This document shows, piece after piece, positions 7,552 to 52,035 of a stretch of DNA of 52,035 bases. Source of the DNA: Chitinophagales bacterium (GTDB taxonomy: Bacteria; Bacteroidota; Bacteroidia; Chitinophagales; UBA2359). The position numbers and the translations under genes are program-made. Position 1 is the stretch's first letter, and every line of letters starts with the position of its first letter. The DNA lies in assembly GCA_049613665.1 (NCBI GenBank), contig JBMZCV010000010.1:1-52035 (forward strand), given 5' to 3'. The notes below the pieces were generated by a model. The model saw only the letters and a list, made by a program, of their open reading frames with translations, was not told the DNA's origin and made no database searches.

Positions 7552-8031
7552 ATGAATAAACATTTCATTGAACTATTGAAATACGATTTTTGGGCAACCC
7601 AACAACTTTTAAAAACGATTGAAAAATATGAAGTGCAAGATGAAAAAATACTTTTTTGGCTCAATCACACTTACAATGCTCAAATGATATGGCTCAAACG
7701 CATTGTTGGCCAGCAATCTCACCTTACATCAAATACGATGCACGATACTGAACATCTAGCTAGCTTTTTTATGCAAGTCAATTCTTTTTTGTTAGGCTTG
7801 TTATATAATCGAAAAAACGAAAATGTTCCCAATCTGAATACCATTATTGCTTATAAAAATAGCAAAGGAATTTCATTTGAAAATACAATGCAAAGCATTT
7901 TTTCGCACCTTTTGCATCATTCCACACACCATAGAGGGCAAATTTGCTCACAACTGCGAAATTTAGGTATTCAGCCACCGCCAATAGATTATATTTTTTA
8001 TAAAAGAAAACAGCAAAGTGAAAGACATTAG
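7552..8031 (+). CDS. DinB/YfiT-like (DinB_2) metal-dependent hydrolase-superfamily protein.
   Basis: 159-aa ORF carrying the conserved HHSTHHRGQ motif. Confidence 0.6.
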   Translation: MNKHFIELLKYDFWATQQLLKTIEKYEVQDEKILFWLNHTYNAQMIWLKRIVGQQSHLTSNTMHDTEHLASFFMQVNSFLLGLLYNRKNENVPNLNTIIAYKNSKGISFENTMQSIFSHLLHHSTHHRGQICSQLRNLGIQPPPIDYIFYKRKQQSERH

Positions 8032-8410
8032 AAGCAGAAATGATATTGAGTTATTGGTTAATGATTTTTATAAAAAAGCACTAAAAGATGAGAAAATTGG
8101 CTTCATTTTTACTGATATTGTACAGCTAAATTGGAAAACTCACATACCTATTATATGCGATTTTTGGGAGAGTGTTTTGCTCGACAACATCAAATATAAA
8201 GGAAATCCTATCTTGAAACACATTGCATTGAATAAAAAAATAAATCTTAAAAAAGAACATTTTGAACGTTGGCTCATGCTATGGCAAAAAAGCGTTCAAA
8301 GAAATTTTGCTGGAAAAATAGCCGATGAAGCCATCAAAAAAGCTAACATGATGGGAAATTTGATGCGATATAAAATTGAAAAAAGTAATGACGCTGGCTT
8401 TATACAATAA
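8018..8410 (+). CDS. Truncated-haemoglobin-like (globin-family) protein.
   Basis: 130-aa ORF. DFYKKALKDEKIGFIF and EHFERWLMLW resemble trHb signatures. It overlaps the upstream gene by 14 nt. Confidence 0.45.
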   Translation: MKDIRSRNDIELLVNDFYKKALKDEKIGFIFTDIVQLNWKTHIPIICDFWESVLLDNIKYKGNPILKHIALNKKINLKKEHFERWLMLWQKSVQRNFAGKIADEAIKKANMMGNLMRYKIEKSNDAGFIQ

Positions 8411-8436
8411 AATTGGCTCTTTTTCAATCAAAAGAA

Positions 8437-8470
8437 TCGCAATTCGTATGCGAAAACATACAAATTGCGA
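8437..8470. terminator. Hairpin between convergent genes that could act as a bidirectional terminator.
   Basis: 14-bp stem TCGCAATTCGTATG/CATACAAATTGCGA with one mismatch and a 6-nt loop. A T-rich tract follows on the minus strand. Confidence 0.35.
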
Positions 8471-8509
8471 TAATACCTAATCTCTTCCAAATTATAAAAT
8501 ATCGTTTTC

Positions 8510-9685
8510 CTAATATGTAGCTAAACTTTCGTCAATTTCGTTGGCATAAGCCAAAACACCACCTTTCAAATTATACAAATTATCGAAACCAAAAGCCTCC
8601 TCTAGCTTCCGAATAGCATCGGCACTACGCTTGCCACTTCTACAATGAATGACTACCTTTTTGTTTCGAGCAACTTTTTCAAAAGCCTTTTCAATCTGTC
8701 CCAAAGGTATGAGTTCGCCAGCCAAATTCACAATTTCATATTCATAAGGCTCTCGCACATCTATCAATTGAAAATCTAATTTTTCGTCTCCCCAAGTTTT
8801 CAGCGTTTGCACATCTATCTCTTTCACTTCTTTCGGTTTTTCCGTTTCAAAACCCAAATCGACATTGCAAAATTCTTCATAATCAATCAAATTCGTTTGC
8901 GTTGGGTTTTCGCCAGTTAGCGGATTAAATTTGCTTGGTTTCACTTTCAAAGTGCGAGTATGAAAAGTAGCCGCATCAAACAAAAATAAACGCCCAGAAA
9001 GTGGCTCGCCTACGCCAGAAATAATTTTAATCACTTCCAAAGCTTGCAAACTACCAATGATGCCAGGAAGTACGCCAATCACACCACCTTCTGCACAATT
9101 TGGCACTAACTCGGCAGGTGGCGGTTCTGGAAATAAATCACGATAATTTGGCCCTAAATTTCCTGCTGTATCTCGCCAATTGAAAACAGAAACCTGCCCT
9201 TCAAAGCGAAAAATAGATGCATAAACATTTGGCTTCCCTAGCAACACACTCGCATCATTGACCAAATATCGTGTCGCAAAATTGTCTGTGCCATCTGCCA
9301 CTACATCATAATTTTTCAAAATATCAAGAGCATTTTCCGAAGTCAATTTTGTATTATGAACCGTAATTTCGATATAAGGATTCAACGCCAACAATCGTTT
9401 TTTGGCTGTTTCAGCCTTAGATTTGCCCACATCTTCCACCGTAAATAAGACTTGACGCTGCAAATTGCTGTTATCTACCACATCAAAATCTACAATTCCG
9501 ATATGTCCAACGCCTGCCGCAGCCAAATATAACAAGACAGGACTTCCCAAGCCGCCAGAGCCAACAACTAGCACTTTTGCTGCTTTCAGCTTTCGTTGTC
9601 CTTCAATATTAAACTCTGGAATGATGATATGGCGACTATAACGTGCGATTTCTTCGTTTGAAAATTTTATTTTGTTATCTGACAT
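8510..9685 (-). CDS. moeZ: MoeZ/MoeB-like E1 adenylyltransferase with a C-terminal rhodanese domain (sulfur-carrier-protein activating enzyme).
   Basis: The ThiF/MoeB nucleotide-binding motif LVVGSGGLGSPVLLYLAAAGVG and the rhodanese active-site motif HCRSGKRS are both present. The start is called at MSDNKIKF (9685), because the longer ORF runs into a repeat element. Confidence 0.85.
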   Translation of the reverse strand: MSDNKIKFSNEEIARYSRHIIIPEFNIEGQRKLKAAKVLVVGSGGLGSPVLLYLAAAGVGHIGIVDFDVVDNSNLQRQVLFTVEDVGKSKAETAKKRLLALNPYIEITVHNTKLTSENALDILKNYDVVADGTDNFATRYLVNDASVLLGKPNVYASIFRFEGQVSVFNWRDTAGNLGPNYRDLFPEPPPAELVPNCAEGGVIGVLPGIIGSLQALEVIKIISGVGEPLSGRLFLFDAATFHTRTLKVKPSKFNPLTGENPTQTNLIDYEEFCNVDLGFETEKPKEVKEIDVQTLKTWGDEKLDFQLIDVREPYEYEIVNLAGELIPLGQIEKAFEKVARNKKVVIHCRSGKRSADAIRKLEEAFGFDNLYNLKGGVLAYANEIDESLATY

Positions 9686-9705
9686 TTTTTTGTTTTTATA
9701 AATGA

Positions 9706-9885
9706 CAATAGTTCTGACATTTTTTATAACAATTTTCAGTTTCATAAAAAAACTTCTTTTGACAAGTGAAACATACTATTTTCAGTTCAAAAGGCCATTA
9801 AATTTGCAAATATTGGCCACCTTAACCTAAAAAAAATAGTACGTTTAAACTTTTGATAAAAAAATGTATAAATGTCCGAACTGTT
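9706..9885 (-). mobile_element. MITE-like repeat element, copy A, about 180 bp with terminal inverted repeats, inserted between cysO and moeZ.
   Basis: Reverse-complement match to the elements at 12479-12659 and 51959-52035. The termini are CAATAGTTCTGACATTTT at 9706 and AAATGTCCGAACTGTTG at 9869-9885. Confidence 0.75.
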
Positions 9886-9917
9886 GAAATAAGAAGTTAA
9901 AAATTATTTTTTTAATG

Positions 9918-10196
9918 CTAAAAAGAGCCGCCTGCAATAGCTGGCACAATGCTAACAACTGTTTCGTTAGAAATAGCAGTTTCACTACCATCAAGGCTAT
10001 TAATGTCTTCATCGCCAACATAAATGCGGATAAAAGAGCGAATTTGCTGGTTTTTGTCCAAAATATGAGGTGCTAATTTGGGATTTGCTGCTACCAAATC
10101 GGCAATAGCTGTTTGCACATTTTGGCTATCTACATCAAAAGTTGATTGATTGCCTGTAAATTTTCTTAACGGAGTTGGAATGATAATTTTTGCCAT
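9918..10196 (-). CDS. cysO: CysO-like MoaD/ThiS-family sulfur carrier protein with a C-terminal GG-SF extension.
   Basis: 92-aa ORF. IPTPLRKFTGNQ...IRIYVGDEDI...VVSIVPAIAGG resembles CysO/MoaD2. The ORF ends GGSF-stop (stop codon TAG at 9918-9920). Confidence 0.8.
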   Translation of the reverse strand: MAKIIIPTPLRKFTGNQSTFDVDSQNVQTAIADLVAANPKLAPHILDKNQQIRSFIRIYVGDEDINSLDGSETAISNETVVSIVPAIAGGSF

Positions 10197-10247
10197 GATT
10201 TGTATATTTTTTAAGTTAATTTTTAAATGTATTTTTGCTTTTCAAGC

Positions 10248-10664
10248 TTATAAAACGCTTTCTTCATCAAATATTTTCGTTTCTTCATTGAGCCGCCACG
10301 AGCGTAAAATATCGACTTTTCCATTCATAACTGAAATAATGATGTATGAAAAAAACGGCATTGCTTGCTTCAAATCATGCACCGACGGAATGGCGAGATG
10401 ATTTGGATGTGTGTGATAAATGCCCAACAATTCAATTTGATTTGATAATGCGTATTGCTCTGCTTTCATATAGTCGAAAGGCGAAATTTCAAAACGCCTT
10501 CTTTGGTCGCCTTTTTTGCTATTTTTCGCAGGCCGTGCCAACTCGACATATCGTTTTCCGCCTGTTATTTTTCCATACAAAAAACCGCAACATTCGTTCG
10601 GAAAACTCGCTTCGCTTTGCTCAAACATCACTTTCTTTGAATTTTCATTAATGCTTATTTCCAT
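10248..10664 (-). CDS. mec: JAMM/MPN+ metalloprotease (Mec+/QbsD-like) that processes the sulfur carrier protein.
   Basis: 138-aa ORF with the JAMM motif HTHPNHLAIPSVHD (H-x-H-x7-S-x2-D) and an upstream Glu. It lies between cysM and cysO. Confidence 0.85.
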   Translation of the reverse strand: MEISINENSKKVMFEQSEASFPNECCGFLYGKITGGKRYVELARPAKNSKKGDQRRRFEISPFDYMKAEQYALSNQIELLGIYHTHPNHLAIPSVHDLKQAMPFFSYIIISVMNGKVDILRSWRLNEETKIFDEESVL

Positions 10665-10725
10665 TTTAAAATATTTTTTTATCTACAAACGTTTCGCATC
10701 TATGATGCTTTAAAATGTTTCTTTT

Positions 10726-11667
10726 TTACAAAAAAATATGCTTTAATACTTCGCCATATTTCTCTGCATTGTCTGCGAAAATCGTGACAATAGTGCCTTC
10801 TTTTATCTGTTCTGCAACTTGAATCGCACCAACCAAATTTGCGGCTGCCGAAGGACTCAATAAAATACCTTCTGTTTGTGCAACATGTCGAATCATGTCG
10901 TAAGCTTCCATCGTATCGACTTCCAAATTTTGATGTGCAATGCTGCCGTCATAAATTCGAGGCACTTTCGCTGTTTCGAGATGTTTCCAACCTTCCATAC
11001 CGTGCAAAGCCGAATTTGGCTGAAACGAAATCAGTTGAATATTAGGGTTCAACAATTGCAATTTTCGGCTTGTGCCAACAAAAGTTCCTGTTGTGCCGAT
11101 TCCTGTTGCGAAATGCGTAATTTTTTGATTCGTTTGCTCAAAAATTTCTACTGCTGTTGTCTCGAAATGTGCTTTCCAATTGTTTTCGTTAGCATATTGG
11201 TCGGCATAAAAATACTTGTTTGGATAAGCTGCTGCCAACTCTTTAGCTTTTGCTTGCGAGCCATCTGTGCCATCGAAACGAGAAGTATAAATGATTTCTA
11301 CGCCAAGAGCTTTGAGAATTTGCTTGCGTTCTGCCGAAGCATTTTCTGGCAAACACAAACTTACTTTTATGCCCAAAGCCGCTCCGATAGACGCATAAGC
11401 AATGCCTGTATTGCCACTTGTAGCGTCTAAAAGCGTTATGTTTTCATGTATAAATCCTTGATTAACAGCATTTTTTATGATGTTGAAAGCTGGCCGAGCT
11501 TTTACACTTCCACCAAGTTGTTGCCATTCTAGCTTGGCAAAAATTTGTATATTCTTTTTTTGAAAAGCTCTTTTTATTGGAAACAAAGGCGTATTTCCGA
11601 TAAAAGATTGTATGTTTTTGAGTCTTTCAAGAAGTTTTTGGCTGACTTGTCGTTTTACTTGATTCAT
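10726..11667 (-). CDS. cysM: PLP-dependent cysteine synthase of the CysM type (uses a thiocarboxylated carrier and O-phosphoserine/O-acetylserine).
   Basis: 313-aa ORF with the fold-II PLP motifs GGSVKARPAFNII and TSGNTGIAYA. It is the first gene of the cysM-mec-cysO-moeZ block. Confidence 0.85.
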   Translation of the reverse strand: MNQVKRQVSQKLLERLKNIQSFIGNTPLFPIKRAFQKKNIQIFAKLEWQQLGGSVKARPAFNIIKNAVNQGFIHENITLLDATSGNTGIAYASIGAALGIKVSLCLPENASAERKQILKALGVEIIYTSRFDGTDGSQAKAKELAAAYPNKYFYADQYANENNWKAHFETTAVEIFEQTNQKITHFATGIGTTGTFVGTSRKLQLLNPNIQLISFQPNSALHGMEGWKHLETAKVPRIYDGSIAHQNLEVDTMEAYDMIRHVAQTEGILLSPSAAANLVGAIQVAEQIKEGTIVTIFADNAEKYGEVLKHIFL

Positions 11668-11694
11668 TTTATGATAGACGTTTTTTGTATGGCG

Positions 11695-11738
11695 AAAAAA
11701 AAATGCACTTTTTCAACTGAATGAAAAAGTGCATTTTT
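11695..11738 (-). terminator. Attenuator terminator T2, a perfect intrinsic terminator 28 nt upstream of the cysM start codon.
   Basis: On the minus strand the sequence reads AAAAATGCACTTTTTC-attcagtt-GAAAAAGTGCATTTTT followed by nine T. The stem is a perfect 16 bp. Confidence 0.75.
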
Positions 11739-11763
11739 GATAAAAAATATTTTTTACAATAAA

Positions 11764-11847
11764 TTACATAGCTACGCCTTTCCACTTTTGGTGAATGAAA
11801 CAACAACAGCAGCAACAGCAATTGATATGTAAATTTGTAAATAACAT
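11764..11847 (-). CDS. Cysteine leader peptide 1: MLFTNLHINCCCCCCCFIHQKWKGVAM, with seven consecutive Cys codons.
   Basis: Reverse complement of 11764-11847 reads ATG TTA TTT ACA AAT TTA CAT ATC AAT TGC TGT TGC TGC TGT TGT TGT TTC ATT CAC CAA AAG TGG AAA GGC GTA GCT ATG TAA. It lies between terminator T1 and terminator T2. Confidence 0.7.
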   Translation of the reverse strand: MLFTNLHINCCCCCCCFIHQKWKGVAM

Positions 11848-11872
11848 GTTTAGATAATTTTTCAGTAACAAC

Positions 11873-11927
11873 AAAAAATAGAAAAAGCCTTTCTTATGAC
11901 CAAATAGTCTTGTAGAAAGGCTTTTTC
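11873..11927 (-). terminator. Attenuator terminator T1.
   Basis: On the minus strand the sequence reads GAAAAAGCCTTTCT-(20-nt loop)-AGAAAGGCTTTTTC followed by TATTTTTTGT. The stem is a perfect 13 bp. Confidence 0.65.
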
Positions 11928-11968
11928 AAACATTGCAATGTTTATATAATAACACAATCTTTCCACAT

Positions 11969-12022
11969 TTATGGACAATACATAAAACAGCAACAACAAC
12001 AAAATGAATGAATTAATCGCAT
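11969..12022 (-). CDS. Cysteine leader peptide 2: MRLIHSFCCCCCFMYCP, with five consecutive Cys codons plus one more.
   Basis: Reverse complement reads ATG CGA TTA ATT CAT TCA TTT TGT TGT TGT TGC TGT TTT ATG TAT TGT CCA TAA. It lies about 40 nt upstream of terminator T1 on the minus strand. Confidence 0.55.
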   Translation of the reverse strand: MRLIHSFCCCCCFMYCP

Positions 12023-12478
12023 AATGAGAAAGATTGAAATATTCTATATTATTTAATACTAAGCGTTTATTTTTAAACGGACTGCTATAATACGGCGTTT
12101 TTTTTAGAAAAACAAACCTAGAACATCATAAAAGTTACAAAGTGTATCTTTAATCAGTTTTGTGACATAAAATTGACTTTTTGGATTATTTTGCTTTACC
12201 CAAATAAAATAATAGTGTGTTTGTATTTGAATGTTTGCTTTTTATTCGTATTTTGAAAAAAAACAAATATTTTGCTTTTTTACTGAAAATAGTAATAAAA
12301 TAGTGCTTTTTTCCTTTTTATATTTTGACAGTTTTTTCACATTCCTTATTTTACACCATGTTTTCTAAAAAAAGATGTAAATTTATTGTTCAAGACTAAT
12401 TTTTAATTTACGCTGTGTCAAAGGCTATTGAATAATAATGCTATTTGTGCTAACACCTTAAAAAACTTGTTAGTTTAC

Positions 12479-12659
12479 CAATAGTTCGGATATTTATACG
12501 TTTTTTATCAAAGACTTAAACATATTATTTTTTTTAGGCTAAGGTGGCCACTATTTGCAAACTTTATAGCCTTTTGAACTAAAAAATAGTAGGTTTCCCT
12601 TGCCAAAAGGTGTTTTTTTATTCGACTGAAAATTGTTATAAAAAATGTCCGAATCATTG
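12479..12659 (+). mobile_element. MITE-like repeat element, copy B, 181 bp with 17-18-bp terminal inverted repeats.
   Basis: Left terminus CAATAGTTCGGATATTT; right terminus AAAATGTCCGAATCATTG, which is the inverted form. A possible 5-bp target-site duplication, TTTAC, flanks it. An internal GGCTAAGGTGGCCA core is shared with copies A and C. Confidence 0.75.
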
Positions 12660-12748
12660 TTTACATAAACTGTAAAATAAATTTGTCCAAATACTTACTA
12701 AACATAAGTTTATTTTTTAATTTATATTATAAAGTTAAATCTACTTAA

Positions 12749-13429
12749 TTGATGAAATCAAAAATTGTATTAATAACGGTTTTATTTTTCTCGCTATTCA
12801 TGTTTAGCAACTGCTCCAACTCAGCTAGTTGTACTGATGGCATTCAAAACCAAGGCGAAAGAGGGATTGATTGTGGCGACGATGCTGGCTTATGTCCTGC
12901 TTGTTCCGATTGTACCAATGGTATTAAAGATGGTGGAGAAGAAGGCATAGATTGTGGTGGGCCAAATTGCGACCCATGCGAAACAGCAGTAGCGAGCTGC
13001 ACTGATGGCATTCAAAATCAAGGCGAAGAGGGCATAGACTGTGGCGGCCCTTGTACGGCTTGCGACCCTATTATTATAGGTGGCGATGCTGCTATGACAG
13101 CAACCATAGATACGGTAGCATTTGTAGCTACTAGCGTAGTGGCAGTTGTGGTTGAGCCACTTGTGAGCATCACAGGAAATGCTGGCGATATAGGAATTGC
13201 TTTGTCTTATTCTGGCACATTAGAAACAGGTACTTTCGACTTGGCAAGTGCTACGATGACACAAGATGTTATCTCTTGTACATCTACTAGCGGCACGATT
13301 ACATTTTCGAGCGTAGATACCGACAATCAACTTTTATCTGGCTCATTCGAGTTTGATTGCAACGATATTTTGGGTGGTACAGGCGACCATAGCATCACAT
13401 CTGGTACTTTTGAAAATGTAAGTTTCTAA
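12749..13429 (+). CDS. Secreted lipoprotein with three tandem Cys-rich modules (about 25 aa, four Cys each).
   Basis: The signal/lipobox is MFSNC. The repeats are SCTDGIQNQGERGIDCGDDAGLCPAC, SDCTNGIKDGGEEGIDCGGPNCDPC and ASCTDGIQNQGEEGIDCGGPCTAC. A Thr/Ser/Val-rich C-terminal half follows. The modules are also visible as DNA repeats. Confidence 0.65.
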   Translation: MMKSKIVLITVLFFSLFMFSNCSNSASCTDGIQNQGERGIDCGDDAGLCPACSDCTNGIKDGGEEGIDCGGPNCDPCETAVASCTDGIQNQGEEGIDCGGPCTACDPIIIGGDAAMTATIDTVAFVATSVVAVVVEPLVSITGNAGDIGIALSYSGTLETGTFDLASATMTQDVISCTSTSGTITFSSVDTDNQLLSGSFEFDCNDILGGTGDHSITSGTFENVSF

Positions 13430-15072: not shown

Positions 15073-17073
15073 ATGACAGCTACACAAATATTTTATCAAA
15101 ACATTGCCCAAATTAGAGATTTGTTTCATAAATATGGTCGTTTTGATGATGCTAATGCCAAACTAGACGAATTGTCGAAATACTTATGTATTTATGTTTA
15201 TGAAAAACAAAGTCCAAAGTTAGCAAAATATAATATAGCAAGCTTACTTATTGAGTTTGAAAAAAACAATTCTTTTTCACTTGTTTCAAAAATTCAAGAA
15301 TTGTTTCATCAAGTTATACTTATTGATGAATTAAAAGATGCCAATGGACATTCCATATTTAAAAATTCGGCAAAGCTAAATATTGCAGCCGATGACCATC
15401 AGTTTGCTTATGCTTTATTAAAATTAGTTTGCAATGCTGTTGATGGCATTATTGAAGGCGAAAGAAACTTTGATGTTCTCAATGAATGTTTTGGACACTT
15501 TGTGAGAGCTAATTTTAGAAATCACATTGAAGATGCCCAATATATGACTCCCAATGAAGTAGTCGAATTTATTTGCGATATAGCACTTCACGATATAAAT
15601 GTCACAGATGTAGATTTAAAAGAATTTATAGTTTTAGACCCTTGTTGTGGTGTTGGCTCGTTTATTTCTACATTTTATCAAAAAAACTTAACTTCAAAAA
15701 AGGTTAAAAATCTAACAGTCATTGGCCAAGATAAAGTAGAAAGAATGGCCAGATTATCGAAAATAAACCTTTTTCTTGCCAACAATAAAAAGCATATTAT
15801 TTCAAACAACAATTCACTTTCAGGAAAGTCTGCACTTGATAATTTGCATGGAAAAGTTGATTTAATACTAACCAATCCTCCTTTTGGAGCAAAGTTTACG
15901 AGCGATGAATTAAAAGTTGATGCAAAAAAAAATTATCCTCATTTATTTGATATTATAGTAAGAAAAAACAAAACGTTTAACTCAGAAGTCTTATTCGTTG
16001 ATAAATGCCTTTCTTTGCTAAAACCAAATGGTAAATTGTTGGCAGTAGTGCCAGATAGCGTTATTTCCTCTAAGGGCCTTAATGAAATGTTAAGACGTAG
16101 ATTAGCGTATAAAAATAATATTCACATTAAAGCTATTATAGAATTGCCAAATGTCACTTTCGCACAAGCAGGCACACGCACCAAAACAAGTATTCTTTAT
16201 ATTGAGAAAGGAACAAGCAAAATTTCTAATACTTTTATTGCGAAAAGCGAAAGTATTGGTTTTGAAGTTAGTACCAAAAAAGGTGCAACCATAAAACATG
16301 AGCAAGGCGAAAATGATTTGTTAAGTATTTTTAAAGCTTATGTTTCGCAAATGGATTTTAAGAATGGTTTGGATATTCAAAAAGTCATTCAAAAACAGCC
16401 TTCTTGTGTTGCTATTCCTTCCGAATGGTTAAAAGAACAAACATGGACTCCCAACCATTATAAAGCATCAAAATTTACTTCTTTTGATAATATGAAAATT
16501 CCAGCAAAAGAAGTAAACTTTGTAAAGTTGTCAGATATTGCATTTTTCGATACCAAAAAGAGAAAGAAAGAAATTTTGGCCAATGATGCAAAATGTATTA
16601 GCGTACTTCATATAAACGATGAAAATTTAAACTATGAAGATTTTCTAAATTATGCTCCCAAATATATGGGCATTCCTTGTCAAAATGGCGATTTGCTCTT
16701 TTCAAAAATAAACCCTAGAATTGTTAGAATATTTGTTATACCTAATTTACCTTATGCTTTAAGCTGTTCTTCCGAATTTGAAGTACTCAATTCTTCAACC
16801 GAACTGAGCAATTATGCTCTAAAAATGTTGTTATTGTTGCCTGCTGTTCAAATTCAAATTAAAGCTTCTACTTCTGGCACATCGTCTTCTCACAATAGAA
16901 TAAAAACTAACGAATTATCTAATCTTATTATTCCAATGCCCAAAAAAGGTAGCAACTATTATACATCTTTTATTGAAAAAGCAAAAAAATACGAAGAAGA
17001 CAGTATCGCCTACAACAATTTAATTTTTACTATGTATAAAACTAAAATGGAAGTTTTCGACATGGTTGAATAA
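15073..17073 (+). CDS. Gamma-class N6-adenine DNA methyltransferase with its own target-recognition region (Type II-like restriction-modification methylase).
   Basis: 666-aa ORF. Motif X (AQYMTPNEVVEFI), motif I (VLDPCCGVGSFI) and motif IV (LTNPPFGAKF) are present, with a C-terminal region of about 300 aa. The local sequence is A+T-rich. Confidence 0.8.
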   Translation: MTATQIFYQNIAQIRDLFHKYGRFDDANAKLDELSKYLCIYVYEKQSPKLAKYNIASLLIEFEKNNSFSLVSKIQELFHQVILIDELKDANGHSIFKNSAKLNIAADDHQFAYALLKLVCNAVDGIIEGERNFDVLNECFGHFVRANFRNHIEDAQYMTPNEVVEFICDIALHDINVTDVDLKEFIVLDPCCGVGSFISTFYQKNLTSKKVKNLTVIGQDKVERMARLSKINLFLANNKKHIISNNNSLSGKSALDNLHGKVDLILTNPPFGAKFTSDELKVDAKKNYPHLFDIIVRKNKTFNSEVLFVDKCLSLLKPNGKLLAVVPDSVISSKGLNEMLRRRLAYKNNIHIKAIIELPNVTFAQAGTRTKTSILYIEKGTSKISNTFIAKSESIGFEVSTKKGATIKHEQGENDLLSIFKAYVSQMDFKNGLDIQKVIQKQPSCVAIPSEWLKEQTWTPNHYKASKFTSFDNMKIPAKEVNFVKLSDIAFFDTKKRKKEILANDAKCISVLHINDENLNYEDFLNYAPKYMGIPCQNGDLLFSKINPRIVRIFVIPNLPYALSCSSEFEVLNSSTELSNYALKMLLLLPAVQIQIKASTSGTSSSHNRIKTNELSNLIIPMPKKGSNYYTSFIEKAKKYEEDSIAYNNLIFTMYKTKMEVFDMVE

Positions 17074-17076
17074 AAT

Positions 17077-17718
17077 TTAAACTGCCTCCAAACACATTCC
17101 CCTTGTCAAGACACTTTTTTTGAAATATACAATGTCATACGACAATTTATTGCTATTCCAAATAGCTTCTAAAAAAAGCGGATAGTGCAAGTTTCCACAA
17201 CTATTTCTAAATTCATTAGAGTTTTTACCTCTTGGCGGATGCAACTGAAAGTTATTGCTAGTAATAATGCCTTCATCTCTTTTTTTATACCAAACAGCAC
17301 ACATTTTGCGAAAAAAAGGGTCTTTAGGTGGCCGAACAAGCCAAACTCTGCATCTTTCGCTTTTATGTTTAGGTTCATTATCCCACAAAACAAAAATAAG
17401 TTTTGGCATAGTATCTAAATAAGATAAATTACCAGAATATTCGCTTTTTGTACCTGCTTTAATAACGCCATTAAAGCGTGGTGTATCAATTGCTCCCCAT
17501 GTATTAGCACCTTTTACATCTGAGCCATCAAGTAAATCAGGGCCTTTTTTTCGCCCATATCCTTCTATTCCTGTTAGCAAACTAGCTAATATTTGAGACC
17601 AAGCTCTTGTATCAGTTGGCGTAGGCTGTTTTGTTGCTTTTGCATAAGGTTCGACAGCAAAAAATGATTGATGGTGTAAATTAAGAAATGTAAGCACTTC
17701 CCTCAAATCTGTATTCAT
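17077..17718 (-). CDS. Candidate cognate restriction endonuclease of unknown family.
   Basis: 213-aa ORF convergent with the methylase and separated from it by a 3-nt gap. It has no recognisable family; GPDLLDGSDVKG is a weak PD-(D/E)xK-like pattern. The call rests on position. Confidence 0.4.
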   Translation of the reverse strand: MNTDLREVLTFLNLHHQSFFAVEPYAKATKQPTPTDTRAWSQILASLLTGIEGYGRKKGPDLLDGSDVKGANTWGAIDTPRFNGVIKAGTKSEYSGNLSYLDTMPKLIFVLWDNEPKHKSERCRVWLVRPPKDPFFRKMCAVWYKKRDEGIITSNNFQLHPPRGKNSNEFRNSCGNLHYPLFLEAIWNSNKLSYDIVYFKKSVLTRGMCLEAV

Positions 17719-18987: not shown

Positions 18988-19080
18988 GTTAGCACTATTT
19001 AATAAACGGTCGATTCGTTGCTAACGCATTGATGTTCAGCGTGTTAGCTTCAACGAGATGTATATTTATTTTTGTCTGAC
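18988..19080 (+). repeat. Intergenic repeat family R, copy 1 (core AGCACTATTTAATAAACGGTCGATTCGTTGCTAACGCATTGAT...CTTCAACGAGATGT).
   Basis: About 95% identical to the reverse complement of 51168-51266. Related copies lie at 27495, 29085, 30430, 31874, 33441, 45473 and 48052. Confidence 0.75.
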
Positions 19081-19084
19081 TACT

Positions 19085-20314
19085 CTAATACATTTTTTCT
19101 GAATAAGCAGGTTTCAAAGGCAAGCCAAAGTTTTTTGATTTCGCAAAATTCAGCAAAATTTCAAGTTTTGTTTCCTCAACTTCAGGGCAAAAAAGATTGA
19201 GCTTTTTATACAACGCTTGCAAATTGTCGGTATTAAATTTTATTTTCTCCTGAATAAGATAGGGTGTCAAAAAAACACCAACTACATTATGATAAGTGCT
19301 TTCCAAATTATTTAAGTCTTTTGGCATTTTATCAACAAATGAGTAACCTGTAATGTTTAATACCTTAAAAATTTGCTGAACACACCATTCAGTAGGTGTT
19401 TCTTCTTCATTAACCAAGTGAAAATAATCGCCTTCTAGGTTTTGTATGCAGGTTTGATACAATATTTTGGCGGCAAAATCTACGGGAATAATATTTATGC
19501 CCGAATTTAAATCAGCTAAAACACGAAGTTTTACCTCTAGTTCTTCGTCATAAATCGATTCTGTATTATTTTTACAAACCATCGTTTTCCAATGAAGGAA
19601 AAAAGCAGCCCAGCCATAAAAAACATCAAACTTCGGTATTGCTCCTATTTCGTTTTCCAATAGTCTGCCGCTAATCGTAGTTGGTCTAAATATCCGACAG
19701 CGAAGTCCTGTACGGTCTTGATAGGCTTTTACTAATATTTCGGCTTGCAATTTACTTCTTTCATAAGGATTTCTAAATTTTTGGTCTAAATTTACATAAT
19801 CTGGCTGAATTTCGTTGTAAGTAGCTCCACAAACATAAGCCGTACTGACATAATCAAACTCTTTAACATCTAATTTGGAAACTAAATTTAAAAGATTTTC
19901 TGTACCTTTTACATTGATTTGATGCAGTTTTGCAATATTTTCGGCACTATTTTTAAAATTAGAAAAAGCAGCAAGGTGCATAAAATAATGAATTGTTTTT
20001 CCTTTCAATTTATTCAATTCATCATTACTGATTAATTCGTCATTGGTTAGTTCAATATTGACAAAATGAACTTTTGTATCAAAAAACACCTTTAATTCTG
20101 GTAATTTATCGGAACTCGCTGCCAAATAATCAAGCCCGTCATTAAAAAAGATGTCTTTCATACGCTCAGACAAAGTTTGTTGAGCCGATGAGCGTCCCAA
20201 AATAATTAATTCAATACTATCAAGCTGATGCAAGTTATCTTTAACAATTTCAAAAAATACATTTCTACCAAAAAATCCTGTGACTCCTGTTAATGCAAAT
20301 ACTTTATTCGCCAT
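19085..20314 (-). CDS. SDR-type NAD(P)-binding reductase (NAD_binding_4 / thioester or fatty acyl reductase-like).
   Basis: 409-aa ORF with N-terminal ALTGVTGFFGRNV matching the TGxTGFLG motif. Confidence 0.55.
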   Translation of the reverse strand: MANKVFALTGVTGFFGRNVFFEIVKDNLHQLDSIELIILGRSSAQQTLSERMKDIFFNDGLDYLAASSDKLPELKVFFDTKVHFVNIELTNDELISNDELNKLKGKTIHYFMHLAAFSNFKNSAENIAKLHQINVKGTENLLNLVSKLDVKEFDYVSTAYVCGATYNEIQPDYVNLDQKFRNPYERSKLQAEILVKAYQDRTGLRCRIFRPTTISGRLLENEIGAIPKFDVFYGWAAFFLHWKTMVCKNNTESIYDEELEVKLRVLADLNSGINIIPVDFAAKILYQTCIQNLEGDYFHLVNEEETPTEWCVQQIFKVLNITGYSFVDKMPKDLNNLESTYHNVVGVFLTPYLIQEKIKFNTDNLQALYKKLNLFCPEVEETKLEILLNFAKSKNFGLPLKPAYSEKMY

Positions 20315-20746: not shown

Positions 20747-21928
20747 ATGGATTTCGATAGCTGGCAAAAAAAACAAGGCAATACGAATGTTAAAGCAAAA
20801 GAGCAAAAACCAAAAGCAAAGCAAAAGTCGTGGAAACGAGAGTTGTTAGAGTTGGCTATTATTGCATTTATTATCGTTCCGCTCATCAATATTTTCGTGT
20901 TGCAATCTTATGCTATTCCGACTTCTTCTATGGAAAATGAAATGTTGGTAGGCGACAAACTTTTTGTTAGCAAATTTCATTATGGTGCAAGAGTGCCGAT
21001 GACTCCTATTGCATTTCCGTATGTGCACAATACTTTGTTTGGCTCGCCATCTTATACCGAAGCTGTCAAATTGCCATATAAAAGACTGCCTGGCATTGCT
21101 CCTTTGAAGCGAAACAACATCGTGGTATTCAATTATCCAGGCGATGTGAAATATGATATTCCTGTCGATAAGCGAGAAAATTATGTGAAGCGTTGTGTGG
21201 CAGTAGCTGGCGATGAAATTCAAGTGATTGAAGGCGAAGTTTTTATAAATGGCGAAAAAGGCGAAAAGCTGAGAAATCTACAACATGCCTACCAAGTTAT
21301 GACGACAAATGAACCTTTCAATCCGAAAAAAATAAAAGAATTGGGCGTTTCAGAAGTCTATCGTTTTCCGAAACGTGGCAATGAACCTGCTATTCCAATT
21401 TCAAAACTCGGTGGTGTGAAAGCTTCTGCTTATACTTTTATGCTGACCGAAAAAGCAGCAGCAGCTTTAGAAAAAATGAGCAATGTGCAAGTTGTCAAAA
21501 GAATGATACAGCCTGTCGAAGCAGCAGATGTATATATTTTTCCTCGTGACGAGCGTTTTGCGTGGAATGTCGATAATTTTGGCCCTGTTTATTTGCCAAA
21601 AGCTGGCGAAAGTATCAAATTGGACTCTACCAACTTTGCGATTTACGAATATCATATTCGCAACTACGAAGGCGAAAAAGATATTACTTTCAAAAATAAT
21701 CAAGCTTATCTCAACGGAAAAGCCATTGAAAGTTATACTTTTAAACAAAATTACTACTTTATGATGGGCGACAACCGACACAATTCGGCCGACTCTCGCT
21801 ATTGGGGTTTTGTGCCAGAAGACCATATCGTGGGCAAACCAATTTTCGTGTGGCTTTCTACCGAAAAAGATGCCACAGGTTGGTCTGACTGGGTGCGTTG
21901 GGGAAAAAGTATGAGAACTGTTCAATAG
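20747..21928 (+). CDS. lepB: Signal peptidase I, paralog 1.
   Basis: Catalytic Ser motif SSMENEMLVGDKLFVSK and the Lys box [24 protein letters not shown]. Confidence 0.85.
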   Translation: MDFDSWQKKQGNTNVKAKEQKPKAKQKSWKRELLELAIIAFIIVPLINIFVLQSYAIPTSSMENEMLVGDKLFVSKFHYGARVPMTPIAFPYVHNTLFGSPSYTEAVKLPYKRLPGIAPLKRNNIVVFNYPGDVKYDIPVDKRENYVKRCVAVAGDEIQVIEGEVFINGEKGEKLRNLQHAYQVMTTNEPFNPKKIKELGVSEVYRFPKRGNEPAIPISKLGGVKASAYTFMLTEKAAAALEKMSNVQVVKRMIQPVEAADVYIFPRDERFAWNVDNFGPVYLPKAGESIKLDSTNFAIYEYHIRNYEGEKDITFKNNQAYLNGKAIESYTFKQNYYFMMGDNRHNSADSRYWGFVPEDHIVGKPIFVWLSTEKDATGWSDWVRWGKSMRTVQ

Positions 21929-22406: not shown

Positions 22407-23639
22407 ATGACAACTCCTTCTGATTCGAGTGTTGAACCTAACGAAAAACCGATTAAAAAGAAGCCAAAACCGCTTTGGCGTGAATGGTTTGATGCCTTGT
22501 TTTTCGCTATTATTGCGGCCACCATCATCCGCACTTTTTTCATTGAAGCCTACACTATTCCGACTTCTTCGATGGAAAAAACTATGCTTGTAGGCGATTA
22601 TCTTTTTGTTAGCAAGCTAAATTATGGTGCAAGAGTGCCAATGACACCGCTTTCGTTTCCTTTCGCACATCATACGATGCCTTTTACGGGTGGCAAATCA
22701 TATAGCGAAGCTTTGAAATTGCCTTATTGGAGACTGCCTGGTTTTCAAGATATAAAACGCAACGATATTATTGTTTTCAATTATCCGATGGAAAGTATGC
22801 GGCCTGTCGATAAGCGAGAAAACTATATCAAACGTTGTGTTGGGTTGCCAAGTGATACGCTACAAATCGTGAATCGGCAGTTGCTCATCAACAACGATAA
22901 ATCGGAAGATATGGGCAATATGCAGTTTAATTATTTTGTGCGAACAAACGGCAATCACATCAATAAAAACGATTTATTTAAGCTAAATATCACAGAAGGT
23001 GGTTTGAACGAAGCCACCGATAGTTTCAATTTGTATAAATATGCTTTGACGCTCGAAAGTCTGGAAAAGATGTCGAAATTTAAGAATGTCGTCAAAATAG
23101 ATACCGTTATGCGTGACAAAGGTATTTATAGCGAAGAGGTGTTTCCGCTTTATCCAAAATTGATGCAAATGGCTCATGCCGAACATCATAATCAAGATAC
23201 GATAACTAAAGTTTCTAAGCAAATTATGAAAAGTTTTGCGTGGAATATCGACAACTTTGGCCCTTTGGTAGTGCCAGCGAAAGGCGACACGGTAGAACTA
23301 AACTTAGAAAATATTTATTTGTATGAACGCATTATTAGGGTGCATGAACACAATGATTTGCAGTTTAACAATGACCAAATACGCATCAATGGCAAGGTGG
23401 CGACTTCTTATGTTTTCAAGATGAATTATTATTTTATGATGGGCGACAACCGACACAATTCGGCGGACTCTCGCTATTGGGGTTTTGTGCCAGAAGACCA
23501 TATCGTGGGCAAAGGCTGGCTAGTGTGGCTCTCGCTAAAACCGATAAATCTCAATCGCAAGGCTGGCTTTTTTAGCAAATATGTGTTTAAAGGGAAAGAA
23601 GTGCGTTGGGATAGGTTTTTTAAGTGGATACATGAGTAA
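22407..23639 (+). CDS. lepB: Signal peptidase I, paralog 2.
   Basis: [17 protein letters not shown] and [24 protein letters not shown]. The second motif is almost nucleotide-identical to paralog 1 over 79 nt. Confidence 0.85.
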
Positions 23640-45472: not shown

Positions 45473-45575
45473 AGTGCCAAACACTATTTAATAAACAGCC
45501 GATTCGTTGCTAACACATTGATAATCAAAGTATTAGCTTCAACAAGCTCTCATGTTATTTTTATTGTAGGTACTT
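45473..45575 (+). repeat. Copy of repeat family R.
   Basis: AGTGCCAAACACTATTTAATAAACAGCCGATTCGTTGCTAACACATTGAT. The ORF 45437-45652 reads across it and is rejected. Confidence 0.65.
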
Positions 45576-51104: not shown

Positions 51105-51167
51105 TGATTTTATTTTTTTGGGAAGTGCAAATCTTTTCGTAAAGCTTATATAAATCCTTATTTAAGT

Positions 51168-51266
51168 AGTCAGACAAAAATAAATATACATCTCGTTGGA
51201 GCTAACACGCTGAACATCAATGTGTTAGCAACGAATCGACCGTTTATTAAATAGTGCTTGGCACTT
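51168..51266 (-). repeat. Copy of repeat family R, nearly identical to the copy at 18988-19080.
   Basis: The reverse complement reads AGTGCCAAGCACTATTTAATAAACGGTCGATTCGTTGCTAACACATTGATGTTCAGCGTGTTAGCTCCAACGAGATGTATATTTATTTTTGTCTGAC. Confidence 0.8.
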
Positions 51267-51712: not shown

Positions 51713-51958
51713 TGTCGTATAATCAGCTTTTGATTAATAATTTTTAGGCTGCAAATATAAATAAACATTTAGCTTTACAGCAAATTTTAACATTTTTTGG
51801 CTTATAACAAAATAATTTATTCGTCATATTATTATTTTGTATTTTTTAAGCAAAAATTTAGACAATGTAATCAATAATAATTACTTTTTTAAATTTTTTC
51901 GCAAAAAAATATTTTAAGCTTATTTTCGTCATTTTTTGTATTTTTTATTATATTTTCA

Positions 51959-52035
51959 CAATAGTTCGGACATTTATAGTTTTTTTTATCAAAGGTTTAA
52001 ACATACTATTTTTTTTAGGCTAAGGTGGCCAATAT
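51959..52035 (+). mobile_element. MITE-like repeat element, copy C, truncated by the window edge.
   Basis: CAATAGTTCGGACATTTATAGTTTTTTTTATCAAAGGTTTAAACATACTATTTTTTTTAGGCTAAGGTGGCCAATAT matches copies A and B. Confidence 0.7.

What the first reader, a model, noticed from the sequence alone, without database searches (positions are those of the whole stretch)
9918..10196. CysO-like carrier ends in GG-SF, so a C-terminally capped sulfur carrier requires JAMM processing.
The ORF ends ...AIAGGSF-stop, read directly with stop codon TAG. MoaD/ThiS/CysO carriers need a free Gly-Gly terminus for adenylation. A two-residue cap therefore implies removal by the adjacent JAMM protease before activation, as QbsD does for QbsE-CF in thioquinolobactin synthesis. 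This combines a CysO-type cysteine route with QbsE-type pro-protein maturation.
Basis: partly seen in the sequence, partly recalled or inferred. Interest (0 to 1): 0.6.

Follow-up and report, generated by a model that had tools for sequence, protein, structure and literature searches.

The report
Capped CysO-type sulfur carrier, JAMM-processed
A small sulfur-carrying protein for cysteine synthesis is made with two extra amino acids that the neighbouring protease almost certainly trims off, but this arrangement is the usual one in related bacteria and is already a recognised principle, so the finding is correct but ordinary.

Summary
A 92-aa ThiS/MoaD-family ORF (9918-10196, minus strand) ends ...PAIAGG-SF-TAG. 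It lies in a four-gene operon: cysM-like PLP enzyme, Prok-JAB/JAMM protease, carrier, MoeZ (ThiF + rhodanese). Its closest solved relatives by sequence and by predicted fold are CysO of M. tuberculosis and A. orientalis, which end exactly at GG. The cap is not a sequencing error: an independent contig carries the identical gene, and a 90%-identical relative has synonymous changes in both Gly codons but the same TCT-TTT-TAG. The cap is not unusual either. 115 of the 120 closest homologs carry 1-7 variable residues after an invariant PAIAGG. Among 80 species-level genomic loci, 57 of 58 carriers with a JAMM nearby are capped or fused in frame to MoeZ, against 7 of 17 without one (Fisher p = 2e-7, confounded with operon type and phylogeny). 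The JAMM of a CysO pathway must already hydrolyse the Gly-Cys bond of the carrier-cysteine adduct every cycle, so trimming Gly-Ser is the same chemistry. It is not a novel combination: the literature calls JAMM processing of capped carriers 'typical', and this operon type was catalogued in 2006. Verdict: new member of a known kind, low interest.

The parts
9918..10196 (-). CysO-like sulfur-carrier pro-protein (92 aa, ThiS/MoaD beta-grasp), ending PAIAGG-SF
   Evidence: ORF and translation. Pfam ThiS E = 4e-9. Best PDB sequence match is M. tuberculosis CysO 3dwg_C, E = 6e-11. AlphaFold2 model has pLDDT 89.8. Best fold matches are CysO 4n6e_B and 3dwg_C, TM 0.85-0.88.
9927..9932 (-). Gly89-Gly90 codons: the future C-terminus that is adenylated and thiocarboxylated
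   Evidence: Invariant columns G89 and G90 in a 54-sequence alignment. They align to the terminal GG of CysO.
9921..9926 (-). Two-residue cap Ser91-Phe92 (TCT TTT), followed by TAG at 9918-9920
   Evidence: Read directly. Identical in L081 and L082. pLDDT < 50 for residues 89-92, so the tail is predicted flexible. Tails are variable in homologs.
10248..10664 (-). JAMM/MPN+ zinc metalloprotease (138 aa), proposed cap remover and cysteine releaser. Catalytic E24 at 10593-10595; H84-T-H86-x7-S94-x2-D97 at 10374-10415.
   Evidence: Pfam Prok-JAB E = 1.6e-21. Motif found. It aligns to HSHPDHPARPSATD of 2kcq_A, E = 1.7e-21, and matches archaeal JAMM1 (5lda_A), E = 1.5e-7.
10726..11667 (-). CysM-like PLP-dependent cysteine synthase (313 aa). 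PLP lysine K56 in the SVKAR motif at 11500-11502.
   Evidence: Pfam PALP E = 2e-64. NCBIfam cysM is the best model at 296 bits, below the equivalog cut-off of 394. PDB: E. coli CysM 2bht 1.7e-49; M. tuberculosis CysM 3dwg_A 4.2e-41.
8510..9685 (-). MoeZ-type E1-like adenylyltransferase/sulfurtransferase (ThiF domain with GSGGLG; rhodanese domain with CRSGKR, Cys at 8642-8644). The mechanical ORF reaches 9745, but the likely start is the Met at 9683-9685.
   Evidence: Pfam ThiF 2e-81 and Rhodanese 7e-12. NCBIfam MoeZ 3.8e-142. Motifs. The start is inferred from the relative L081, whose MoeZ begins MSNNNIEFSNEE....
9705..9906 (.). About 175-200 nt MITE-like dispersed repeat inserted in the carrier-moeZ spacer. 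Not part of the mechanism; it does not touch the cap or the stop codon.
   Evidence: Repeat pairs I2-I4. Alignment of three copies. The spacer is about 55 nt in L081 and 232 nt here.
8436..8471 (-). Possible operon terminator just downstream of moeZ: 16-pair hairpin followed by a T-rich tail
   Evidence: Consensus scan only. The number of terminator-like sites in the region is not clearly above shuffles (6 versus 3.3 +/- 2.1).

Best explanation
The gene encodes the pro-form of a CysO-type sulfur-carrier protein in a thiocarboxylate-dependent cysteine synthesis operon (cysM-JAMM-carrier-moeZ) of an uncultured Bacteroidota bacterium. Step 1 (shown by sequence): the carrier is translated with Ser-Phe after Gly90. 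Step 2 (inferred): the adjacent JAMM zinc protease hydrolyses the Gly90-Ser91 peptide bond and exposes the Gly-Gly carboxylate. Step 3 (by homology): the ThiF domain of MoeZ adenylates Gly90, and its rhodanese-domain cysteine persulfide converts it to a thiocarboxylate. Step 4 (by homology with M. tuberculosis): CysM forms an aminoacrylate from O-phosphoserine or O-acetylserine, the carrier thiocarboxylate adds to it, and an S-to-N acyl shift gives carrier-Gly-Gly-Cys. Step 5 (by homology): the same JAMM hydrolyses the Gly90-Cys bond, releasing cysteine and regenerating the carrier. Steps 2 and 5 are the same reaction, removal of whatever follows Gly90. This explains why caps of many lengths and sequences, and even in-frame fusions to MoeZ, are tolerated wherever this protease is part of the operon. 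The cap is most simply a tolerated pro-peptide that makes the JAMM a maturase as well as a release factor, and need not be a specialised regulatory device.
For: All four gene families are identified with intact catalytic motifs. The carrier is closest to CysO by sequence and by fold, with the GG aligned to CysO's C-terminus. 45 of 80 species-level loci from Bacteroidota, Acidobacteriota, Chloroflexota, archaea and others have the same order and strand, cysM-JAMM-carrier-moeZ. With a JAMM nearby, carriers are capped or fused in 57 of 58 loci; without one, in 7 of 17 (Fisher p = 2.3e-7). 19 of the 58 loci with a JAMM nearby have a long extension after GG, most of which continue into a MoeZ-like sequence (...RYSRHLI...), so these carriers cannot function without cleavage after GG. 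PAIAGG is invariant while the tail varies (SF, IA, SK, SI, SY, C, V ...) among homologs of 55-67% identity. The residue after GG is S/I/A/V/C in 100 of 115 close homologs, and six tails begin with Cys, the residue that follows GG in the catalytic adduct. Literature: Mec+ hydrolyses the CysO-cysteine adduct (PMC3227635). QbsD exposes GG of QbsE-CF, and a CxnE decapeptide cap with the JAMM CxnF has been proposed (PMC5925218). [quoted passage not shown] An archaeal JAMM1 cleaves regardless of what is attached to the Ubl's C-terminal Gly (PMC8832034).
Against: There is no biochemical test of cleavage, adenylation or cysteine formation for this or any Bacteroidota system. The cap-JAMM association is confounded with operon type and phylogeny: all CysM-linked loci have a JAMM, so there is no within-type contrast, and the loci are not independent. 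M. tuberculosis CysO works with Mec+ without any cap, so a JAMM in such an operon does not by itself imply a maturase role. Seven capped carriers had no JAMM within 2.5 kb. The PLP enzyme scores slightly better against E. coli CysM than against M. tuberculosis CysM and falls below NCBIfam equivalog cut-offs, so its substrate and its use of a protein thiocarboxylate rest on gene context only.
Confidence: 0.8

Rival explanations
1. The cap is removed by some other peptidase, such as a general carboxypeptidase. In this reading the operon's JAMM serves only to release cysteine from the carrier-cysteine adduct, as Mec+ does in M. tuberculosis.
For: M. tuberculosis has the JAMM with an uncapped carrier, so cysteine release alone explains why the JAMM is in the operon. 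Seven capped carriers have no JAMM within 2.5 kb.
Against: Caps and fusions are strongly enriched where a JAMM is adjacent. A carboxypeptidase could not release a carrier fused to a roughly 390-aa MoeZ, and it would need to stop exactly at GG. The JAMM already cuts precisely after GG. JAMM-dependent cap removal is documented in other systems.
Confidence: 0.07
2. The carrier is primarily a ubiquitin-like protein modifier of the SAMP/TtuB type. It would be matured by the JAMM, conjugated to lysines of target proteins through MoeZ, and deconjugated by the same JAMM. The adjacent CysM would be a target or merely a co-regulated gene.
For: The best NCBIfam models are SAMP1 for the carrier (E = 7e-13) and desampylase for the JAMM (E = 9e-14), both below their cut-offs. 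The fold search also finds SAMP1 and Urm1. SAMP and TtuB are known to act both as sulfur carriers and as modifiers (PMC3980101).
Against: The closest relatives by sequence and by fold are CysO proteins. The tight linkage to a cysteine synthase is conserved across phyla, with 45 loci in the same order. No E2-like gene or other conjugation component lies in the operon.
Confidence: 0.07
3. The two extra residues are an artefact: a sequencing or assembly error, or a frameshift in the A5/T5 run at the 3' end. The true protein would then end at GG.
For: A homopolymer run (TTTTT on the coding strand) spans the Phe codon and the first base of the stop codon.
Against: The sequence is identical in an independent assembly (L082). 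The same tail and stop occur in a 90%-identical relative that has synonymous differences nearby. 115 of 120 homologs are capped.
Confidence: 0.01

Closest known systems
CysO / CysM / Mec+ / MoeZ protein-thiocarboxylate cysteine pathway of Mycobacterium tuberculosis (Burns et al. 2005, as summarised in PMC3227635)
   Same: The same four protein families are encoded together. The carrier's best solved relative by sequence (3dwg_C) and by fold is CysO. The JAMM cuts after the carrier's GG to release cysteine. MoeZ has the ThiF plus rhodanese architecture.
   Different: M. tuberculosis CysO ends at a free GG, whereas this one ends GG-SF. The PLP enzyme here is no closer to M. tuberculosis CysM than to E. 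coli CysM, and its substrate (O-phosphoserine or O-acetylserine) is unknown. Iyer et al. list the actinobacterial operon, which also includes ClpS, as a separate subtype (row 4d), and this four-gene type as row 4c.
QbsE / QbsD of Pseudomonas fluorescens thioquinolobactin synthesis
   Same: A MoaD/ThiS-type carrier with a two-residue cap after GG (CF: a small residue followed by Phe, like SF here), removed by a cluster-encoded JAMM to expose GG before adenylation (PMC5925218; PMC6006322).
   Different: It belongs to a siderophore pathway with no cysteine synthase. No Qbs-type genes are present in the window.
HcyS-Ala / HcyD / HcyF / MetY methionine pathway of Wolinella succinogenes (Krishnamoorthy & Begley, JACS 2011; recalled from memory because the paper is not held in the library)
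   Same: As I recall it, one JAMM-type metalloprotease first removes a C-terminal cap (Ala) from the carrier. Later it hydrolyses the carrier-amino-acid adduct made by a PLP sulfhydrylase. This is the same two-role logic proposed here.
   Different: It makes homocysteine through MetY, not cysteine through CysM. The cap is one residue. Sulfide is supplied by a sulfite reductase, not by a rhodanese-fused MoeZ.
PtmS2 / PtmS1 of Streptomyces platensis, and CxnE / CxnF of Actinoplanes
   Same: Capped carriers (MV; C; a decapeptide) are clustered with a JAMM. Deleting the JAMM abolishes carrier-dependent sulfur incorporation (PMC6006322). A JAMM is proposed to remove the CxnE cap (PMC5925218).
   Different: The carriers feed natural-product pathways, and these are Actinobacteria.
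Archaeal SAMPs with HvJAMM1 / PfJAMM1, and Deinococcus DRJAMM cleaving a MoaD-MoaE fusion
   Same: A JAMM recognises a beta-grasp protein and cuts after its C-terminal Gly regardless of what follows (PMC8832034). The window's JAMM matches PfJAMM1 (5lda_A) at E = 1.5e-7. The cleavage of natural fusions parallels the carrier-MoeZ fusions seen in related loci.
   Different: Those systems serve protein conjugation or molybdopterin synthesis, not cysteine synthesis.

Membership tests
CysO-type protein-thiocarboxylate cysteine synthesis operon (Iyer et al. 2006, type 4c) | Small ThiS/MoaD-family beta-grasp carrier with a conserved Gly-Gly at or near the C-terminus | tested here: met
   Pfam ThiS. 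CysO is the best PDB sequence hit. The predicted beta-grasp fold matches CysO at TM 0.85-0.88. G89 and G90 are invariant.
CysO-type protein-thiocarboxylate cysteine synthesis operon (Iyer et al. 2006, type 4c) | Adjacent cysteine-synthase-family PLP enzyme with the catalytic lysine | tested here: met
   PALP E = 2e-64, and cysM is the best NCBIfam model. K56 lies in the SVKAR motif. The linkage is conserved in 47 of 80 loci.
CysO-type protein-thiocarboxylate cysteine synthesis operon (Iyer et al. 2006, type 4c) | Adjacent JAB/JAMM peptidase with an intact metal site | tested here: met
   Prok-JAB E = 1.6e-21. E24 and H84-x-H86-x7-S94-xx-D97 are present.
CysO-type protein-thiocarboxylate cysteine synthesis operon (Iyer et al. 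2006, type 4c) | E1-like adenylyltransferase fused to a rhodanese domain with an active-site cysteine | tested here: met
   ThiF and Rhodanese domains. NCBIfam MoeZ E = 3.8e-142, 474 bits, below the equivalog cut-off of 647. GSGGLG and CRSGKR motifs.
CysO-type protein-thiocarboxylate cysteine synthesis operon (Iyer et al. 2006, type 4c) | CysM uses the carrier thiocarboxylate (with O-phosphoserine in M. tuberculosis) and the JAMM releases cysteine | not testable with these tools
   This is a biochemical property. Only gene context supports it. The enzyme is not closer to M. tuberculosis CysM than to E. coli CysM.
Capped (pro-protein) sulfur carriers matured by a JAMM (QbsE/QbsD type) | One or more encoded residues after the Gly-Gly motif | tested here: met
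   GG-SF-TAG, confirmed in independent contigs.
Capped (pro-protein) sulfur carriers matured by a JAMM (QbsE/QbsD type) | A JAMM protease encoded next to the capped carrier | tested here: met
   The JAMM stop codon (10248) lies 51 nt upstream of the carrier's start (10196), on the same strand. Caps and JAMM presence are associated across loci.
Capped (pro-protein) sulfur carriers matured by a JAMM (QbsE/QbsD type) | Demonstrated hydrolysis of the cap by the JAMM, exposing GG | not testable with these tools
   Requires mass spectrometry of the carrier with and without the JAMM. The expected loss is 234.25 Da.
Thioquinolobactin (Qbs) siderophore cluster | Qbs-type siderophore biosynthesis genes around the carrier | tested here: not met
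   The neighbours are CysM, MoeZ, a DinB-family protein, a thioredoxin-like protein, FabG-like SDR and R-M genes. No siderophore genes were found. The locus works like QbsE/QbsD at the maturation step but is not a member of that pathway.
SAMP / desampylase ubiquitin-like conjugation system | Scores above the curated cut-offs of the SAMP1 and desampylase equivalog models | tested here: not met
   SAMP1 48.9 bits against a cut-off of 60; desampylase 51.6 bits against a cut-off of 130.

The most novel reading that the evidence does not exclude
Outside the M. tuberculosis-type lineage, CysO-type carriers may be obligate pro-proteins, carrying a short cap or a full in-frame fusion to MoeZ. Capping would then be selected and not merely tolerated. 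It could insulate the carrier from the cell's other E1-like enzymes (MoeB, ThiF), or it could tie carrier activation to the zinc or redox state of the JAMM, making the protease a control point of thiocarboxylate-dependent cysteine synthesis. The evidence does not exclude this. Caps are near-universal (115/120; 57/58), their length is concentrated at two residues in this clade, and the first cap residue is biased to S/I/A/V/C. All of this is equally compatible with neutral tolerance plus phylogenetic inertia.
Probability: 0.2. Interest if true: 0.4.

Novelty: new member of a known kind. Interest (0 to 1): 0.15.

Why it matters
For this window it matters little. It refines the annotation: the 'MoaD/ThiS family protein' is a CysO-type carrier pro-protein, and the neighbouring JAMM is both its maturase and its cysteine-release enzyme. 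More generally, the comparative tables show that the textbook M. tuberculosis CysO, with its free GG, is the minority state among relatives of this carrier. Capped carriers and carriers fused to MoeZ dominate in Bacteroidota, Acidobacteriota, Chloroflexota and some archaea. Anyone expressing these carriers recombinantly must remove the cap or co-express the JAMM to get an active protein. Pathway-prediction tools should not reject such carriers because they do not end in GG.

Tried and rejected
1. Rfam scan of the whole window at gathering thresholds found no riboswitch or other RNA family near the operon.
2. The promoter and terminator consensus scan of 8300-12800 found counts not clearly above shuffles (21 versus 16.7 +/- 4.3; 6 versus 3.3 +/- 2.1). 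Only the hairpin after moeZ is worth noting.
3. The 50%-identity representative library gave many very long 'tails'. Part of this is real (MoeZ fusions), but that library seems enriched for long or mis-called sequences, so I did not use its proportions. I relied instead on the 90%-identity homolog list and on stop-to-stop ORFs in genomic loci.
4. I tried to read Burns et al. 2005 (PMC2536522), Tran et al. 2011 (PMC3176619) and Krishnamoorthy & Begley 2011 (PMC3089676). None is held, so the HcyS-Ala/HcyD precedent rests on my memory. No paper in the library contains 'HcyD'.
5. I considered whether the MITE-like insertion next to the carrier created the cap. It did not: the element starts about 12 nt (repeat coordinates) to about 30 nt (terminal inverted repeat) downstream of the stop codon, and L081, which lacks the element, has the same GGSF-TAG.
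6. I considered a SAMP-like conjugation system. Both equivalog models score below their cut-offs, and CysO is the nearer relative.
7. I did not determine O-phosphoserine versus O-acetylserine specificity of the CysM. No M. tuberculosis CysM alignment was shown, and I did not want to rely on residue numbers recalled from memory.
8. No paper found in the held library explicitly reports capped carriers in CysM-linked operons of Bacteroidota.

Full report
**Observation.** The ORF at 9918-10196 lies on the minus strand and encodes 92 residues ending ...VSIVPAIAGGSF, followed by TAG. Read directly from the sequence: GGC GGC TCT TTT TAG occupies 9932 down to 9918. The ORF is a genuine gene. It matches Pfam ThiS (E = 4e-9, above the curated cut-off) and has thousands of homologs, the best at E = 1e-46. 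A T5 run on the coding strand spans the Phe codon and the stop, so I tested the sequencing-error possibility. An independently assembled Logan contig (L082) encodes the identical protein. An ENA metagenome contig (L081, 90% protein identity) has both glycine codons changed synonymously (GGC to GGT) and further silent differences, yet keeps TCT TTT TAG at the same position. The cap is real.

**Anatomy of the locus.** Four genes lie head to tail on the minus strand.
- A CysM-like PLP enzyme at 10726-11667 (PALP 2e-64; cysM is the best NCBIfam model; catalytic Lys56 in the SVKAR motif).
- A 138-aa Prok-JAB/JAMM protease at 10248-10664 (E = 1.6e-21) with Glu24 and His84-x-His86-x7-Ser94-x2-Asp97.
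- The carrier at 9918-10196.
- A MoeZ-type enzyme at 8510-9685, with a ThiF domain (GSGGLG) and a rhodanese domain whose active-site loop is CRSGKR.

The JAMM aligns along its length with the solved but uncharacterised MPN protein 2kcq_A (E = 1.7e-21), and more weakly with archaeal JAMM1 (5lda_A/5ld9_A). The rest of the window is ordinary Bacteroidota-type chromosome. It holds a FadB-like enzyme, succinyl-CoA ligase, RecQ, two signal peptidases, an Omp85 protein and a restriction-modification pair. No further cysteine or sulfate-assimilation genes are present. Names attached to close homologs point to Saprospiraceae, Chitinophagales and Flavobacteriales.

**What the carrier is.** Its best match among all solved structures is M. 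tuberculosis CysO (3dwg_C, E = 6e-11), followed by the A. orientalis CysO (4n6e_B). In both alignments the query's Gly89-Gly90 align with the last two residues of the solved protein. An AlphaFold2 model built on 54 homologs is confident (mean pLDDT 89.8) and is a beta-grasp. Only residues 89-92 (GGSF) fall below pLDDT 50, as expected for a flexible tail. Foldseek against the PDB again ranks the two CysO proteins first (TM 0.85-0.88), ahead of SAMP1, Urm1 and MoaD.

**Is the cap special?** It is not.
- Of the 120 closest homologs (55-91% identity), 115 have residues after the last GG. Ninety have exactly two, 15 have one, and the others have 3-7.
- PAIAGG is invariant, but the tail is not: SF (14), IA (7), SK, SI, SY, C, V, AF and more.
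- The first tail residue is S, I, A, V or C in 100 of 115. The second is more varied, with F the most frequent.

I then fetched 80 species-level genomic loci that encode relatives. For each I read the carrier ORF through to its stop and searched the flanks with the window's JAMM, CysM and MoeZ.
- Forty-seven loci hold all four genes, and 45 of them have the window's order and strand. They come from Bacteroidota, Acidobacteriota, Chloroflexota, Poribacteria and even Thermoplasmata and Nitrososphaerales.
- Among loci with a JAMM within 2.5 kb, 38 carriers have short caps (1-29 residues). Nineteen have a long extension after GG, and most of these continue in frame into a MoeZ-like sequence (GG-linker-...RYSRHLI...). 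One has a free GG.
- Among loci with enough flank but no JAMM, 10 have a free GG and 7 are capped or extended (Fisher p = 2.3e-7).

The p-value should not be over-read. The loci are phylogenetically related, and the JAMM-negative loci are mostly a different operon type.

**Mechanism.** In the M. tuberculosis pathway, MoeZ forms the CysO thiocarboxylate. CysM adds it to the aminoacrylate derived from O-phosphoserine, giving a CysO-cysteine adduct. [quoted passage not shown] The JAMM of such an operon is therefore already an enzyme that removes a residue attached to the carrier's terminal Gly, once per turnover. Removing Ser-Phe from Gly90 is the same reaction on a slightly different leaving group.

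This accounts for three things the data show. Caps occur where the JAMM is present. Their sequence and length drift freely. Even read-through into the downstream moeZ gene is viable. It also fits the observation that an archaeal JAMM1 cleaves irrespective of what is attached to the Ubl's C-terminal Gly (quoted in PMC8832034). Some encoded caps are a single Cys or begin with Cys, the residue that follows GG in the catalytic adduct.

I put the probability that the adjacent JAMM trims the cap to activate a CysO-type carrier at about 0.8. Translation of the capped form is shown by sequence. Cleavage, adenylation, thiocarboxylation, CysM coupling and cysteine release are all inferred from homology, conserved context and precedent.

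**Rivals.**
- Another peptidase could remove the cap, leaving the JAMM to release cysteine only. This is hard to square with the MoeZ fusions and with the need to stop exactly at GG (about 0.07).
- The system could be SAMP-like protein conjugation. That is suggested only by sub-threshold NCBIfam hits and is outweighed by the CysO similarity and the CysM linkage conserved across phyla (about 0.07).
- An artefact is excluded.

[quoted passage not shown] They proposed that JAB domains process Ub-like proteins and cleave fusions after the terminal glycine (PMC1779556). JAMM-dependent removal of a cap is described for QbsE-CF/QbsD and proposed for the decapeptide cap of CxnE (PMC5925218). Dong et al. 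[quoted passage not shown] They also show that deleting the JAMM gene next to a capped carrier (PtmS2, cap MV) abolishes sulfur incorporation (PMC6006322).

From memory, since the paper is not held: the Wolinella succinogenes HcyS-Ala/HcyD/MetY pathway shows the same two-role JAMM experimentally for homocysteine. The locus here passes every testable membership criterion for the CysO-type operon and for the class of capped carriers matured by a JAMM. It is not part of a Qbs siderophore cluster. I found no paper in the held library that specifically reports capping of CysM-linked carriers in Bacteroidota, but this is an unreported instance of a stated rule and not a new rule.

**Verdict.** The novelty claim ('combines' two systems) is not supported, because this combination is the common state. 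Classification: new member of a known kind. Interest: 0.15. The most novel reading still open is that capping is selected as an insulation or control device. I give it a probability of 0.2 and an interest of 0.4 if true.

**Side observations.** A MITE-like repeat of about 175-200 nt has imperfect terminal inverted repeats (GTTCGGACATTT...AAATGTCCGAAC). One copy sits in the carrier-moeZ spacer (9705-9906). An inverted copy lies upstream of cysM (12501-12660), and a third is cut by the window's end (51939-52035). The 90%-identical relative L081 lacks the spacer copy: its spacer is about 55 nt against 232 nt here. The short contig L082 breaks inside the repeat at the carrier end and apparently also at its upstream end. 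The insertion does not touch the cap. It may affect coupling of moeZ expression to the upstream genes.

Noticed in passing
window 9705-9906 (+), 12501-12660 (inverted), 51939-52035 (inverted, cut by the window end): A MITE-like dispersed repeat of about 175-200 nt, 78-87% identical between copies, with imperfect terminal inverted repeats (GTTC[T/G]GACATTT ... AAATGTCCGAAC). One copy is inserted in the carrier-moeZ spacer. The 90%-identical relative L081 lacks it (spacer about 55 nt versus 232 nt). Contig L082 ends inside the repeat at its carrier end and, by my coordinate estimate, at its upstream end too. There is no Rfam match.
   Followed up: partly
L009 3989-5470; also L010, L011, L026, L030, L032, L046, L047, L049, L058, L060, L069, L071, L077 and others: In 19 of 80 related genomic loci the carrier ORF carries a long extension after GG. 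In most of these it continues in frame into a full MoeZ (GG-linker-...RYSRHLI..., about 390 further residues). All 19 have a JAMM gene nearby. These natural fusions cannot work without cleavage after GG. They occur in Chitinophagaceae, Acidobacteriota, Thermoplasmata and Nitrososphaerales.
   Followed up: partly
L064 3008-3532 and L076 2099-2623: Two carriers have an extension of about 80 residues after GG that is similar between the two loci (VSIKKKVYLTYPQSLIKEPLIY... and AALIKKRVTLVFPQDQIKEPAVF...). It is not MoeZ, and I did not identify the domain.
   Followed up: no
homologs P0001-P0120: The first residue after GG is strongly biased to S, I, A, V or C (100 of 115). D, E, P, G, F, Y, W, H, R and Q are absent at this position among the close homologs. 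Five tails are a single Cys and one more begins with Cys, the residue that follows GG in the catalytic carrier-cysteine adduct. The commonest two-residue tails (SF, SY, AF, CY) resemble QbsE's CF.
   Followed up: partly
window 9683-9745: The mechanical MoeZ ORF starts at 9745, inside the repeat element. Comparison with L081 (MSNNNIEFSNEE...) indicates the real start is the Met at 9683-9685, giving 391 aa and not 411 aa.
   Followed up: yes
window 18991-19090, 45473-45562, 51159-51265: A second dispersed repeat family of about 90-100 nt, 81-96% identical, in direct and inverted orientations.
   Followed up: no
window 47061-47448, within ORF 45649-47958 (+): A coding tandem repeat with a 33-nt (11-residue) period, several copies, rich in Lys/Glu/Ala codons. 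The protein was not identified.
   Followed up: no
window 20747-21928 and 22407-23639 (+): Two adjacent paralogous signal peptidase I (Peptidase_S26) genes of about 400 aa. They account for direct repeats D3 and D4 (73-91% identity over 106-151 nt).
   Followed up: no
window 15073-17073 (+) and 17077-17718 (-): A restriction-modification pair: an N6 DNA methylase (N6_Mtase/Eco57I domains) convergent with a MamI-family restriction endonuclease, about 5 kb from the operon.
   Followed up: no
window 8018-8410 (+): A 130-aa ORF between the DinB-family gene and moeZ has no Pfam match. The same DinB gene and a 130-aa gene follow moeZ in the relative L081, so this neighbourhood is conserved at short evolutionary range.
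   Followed up: no
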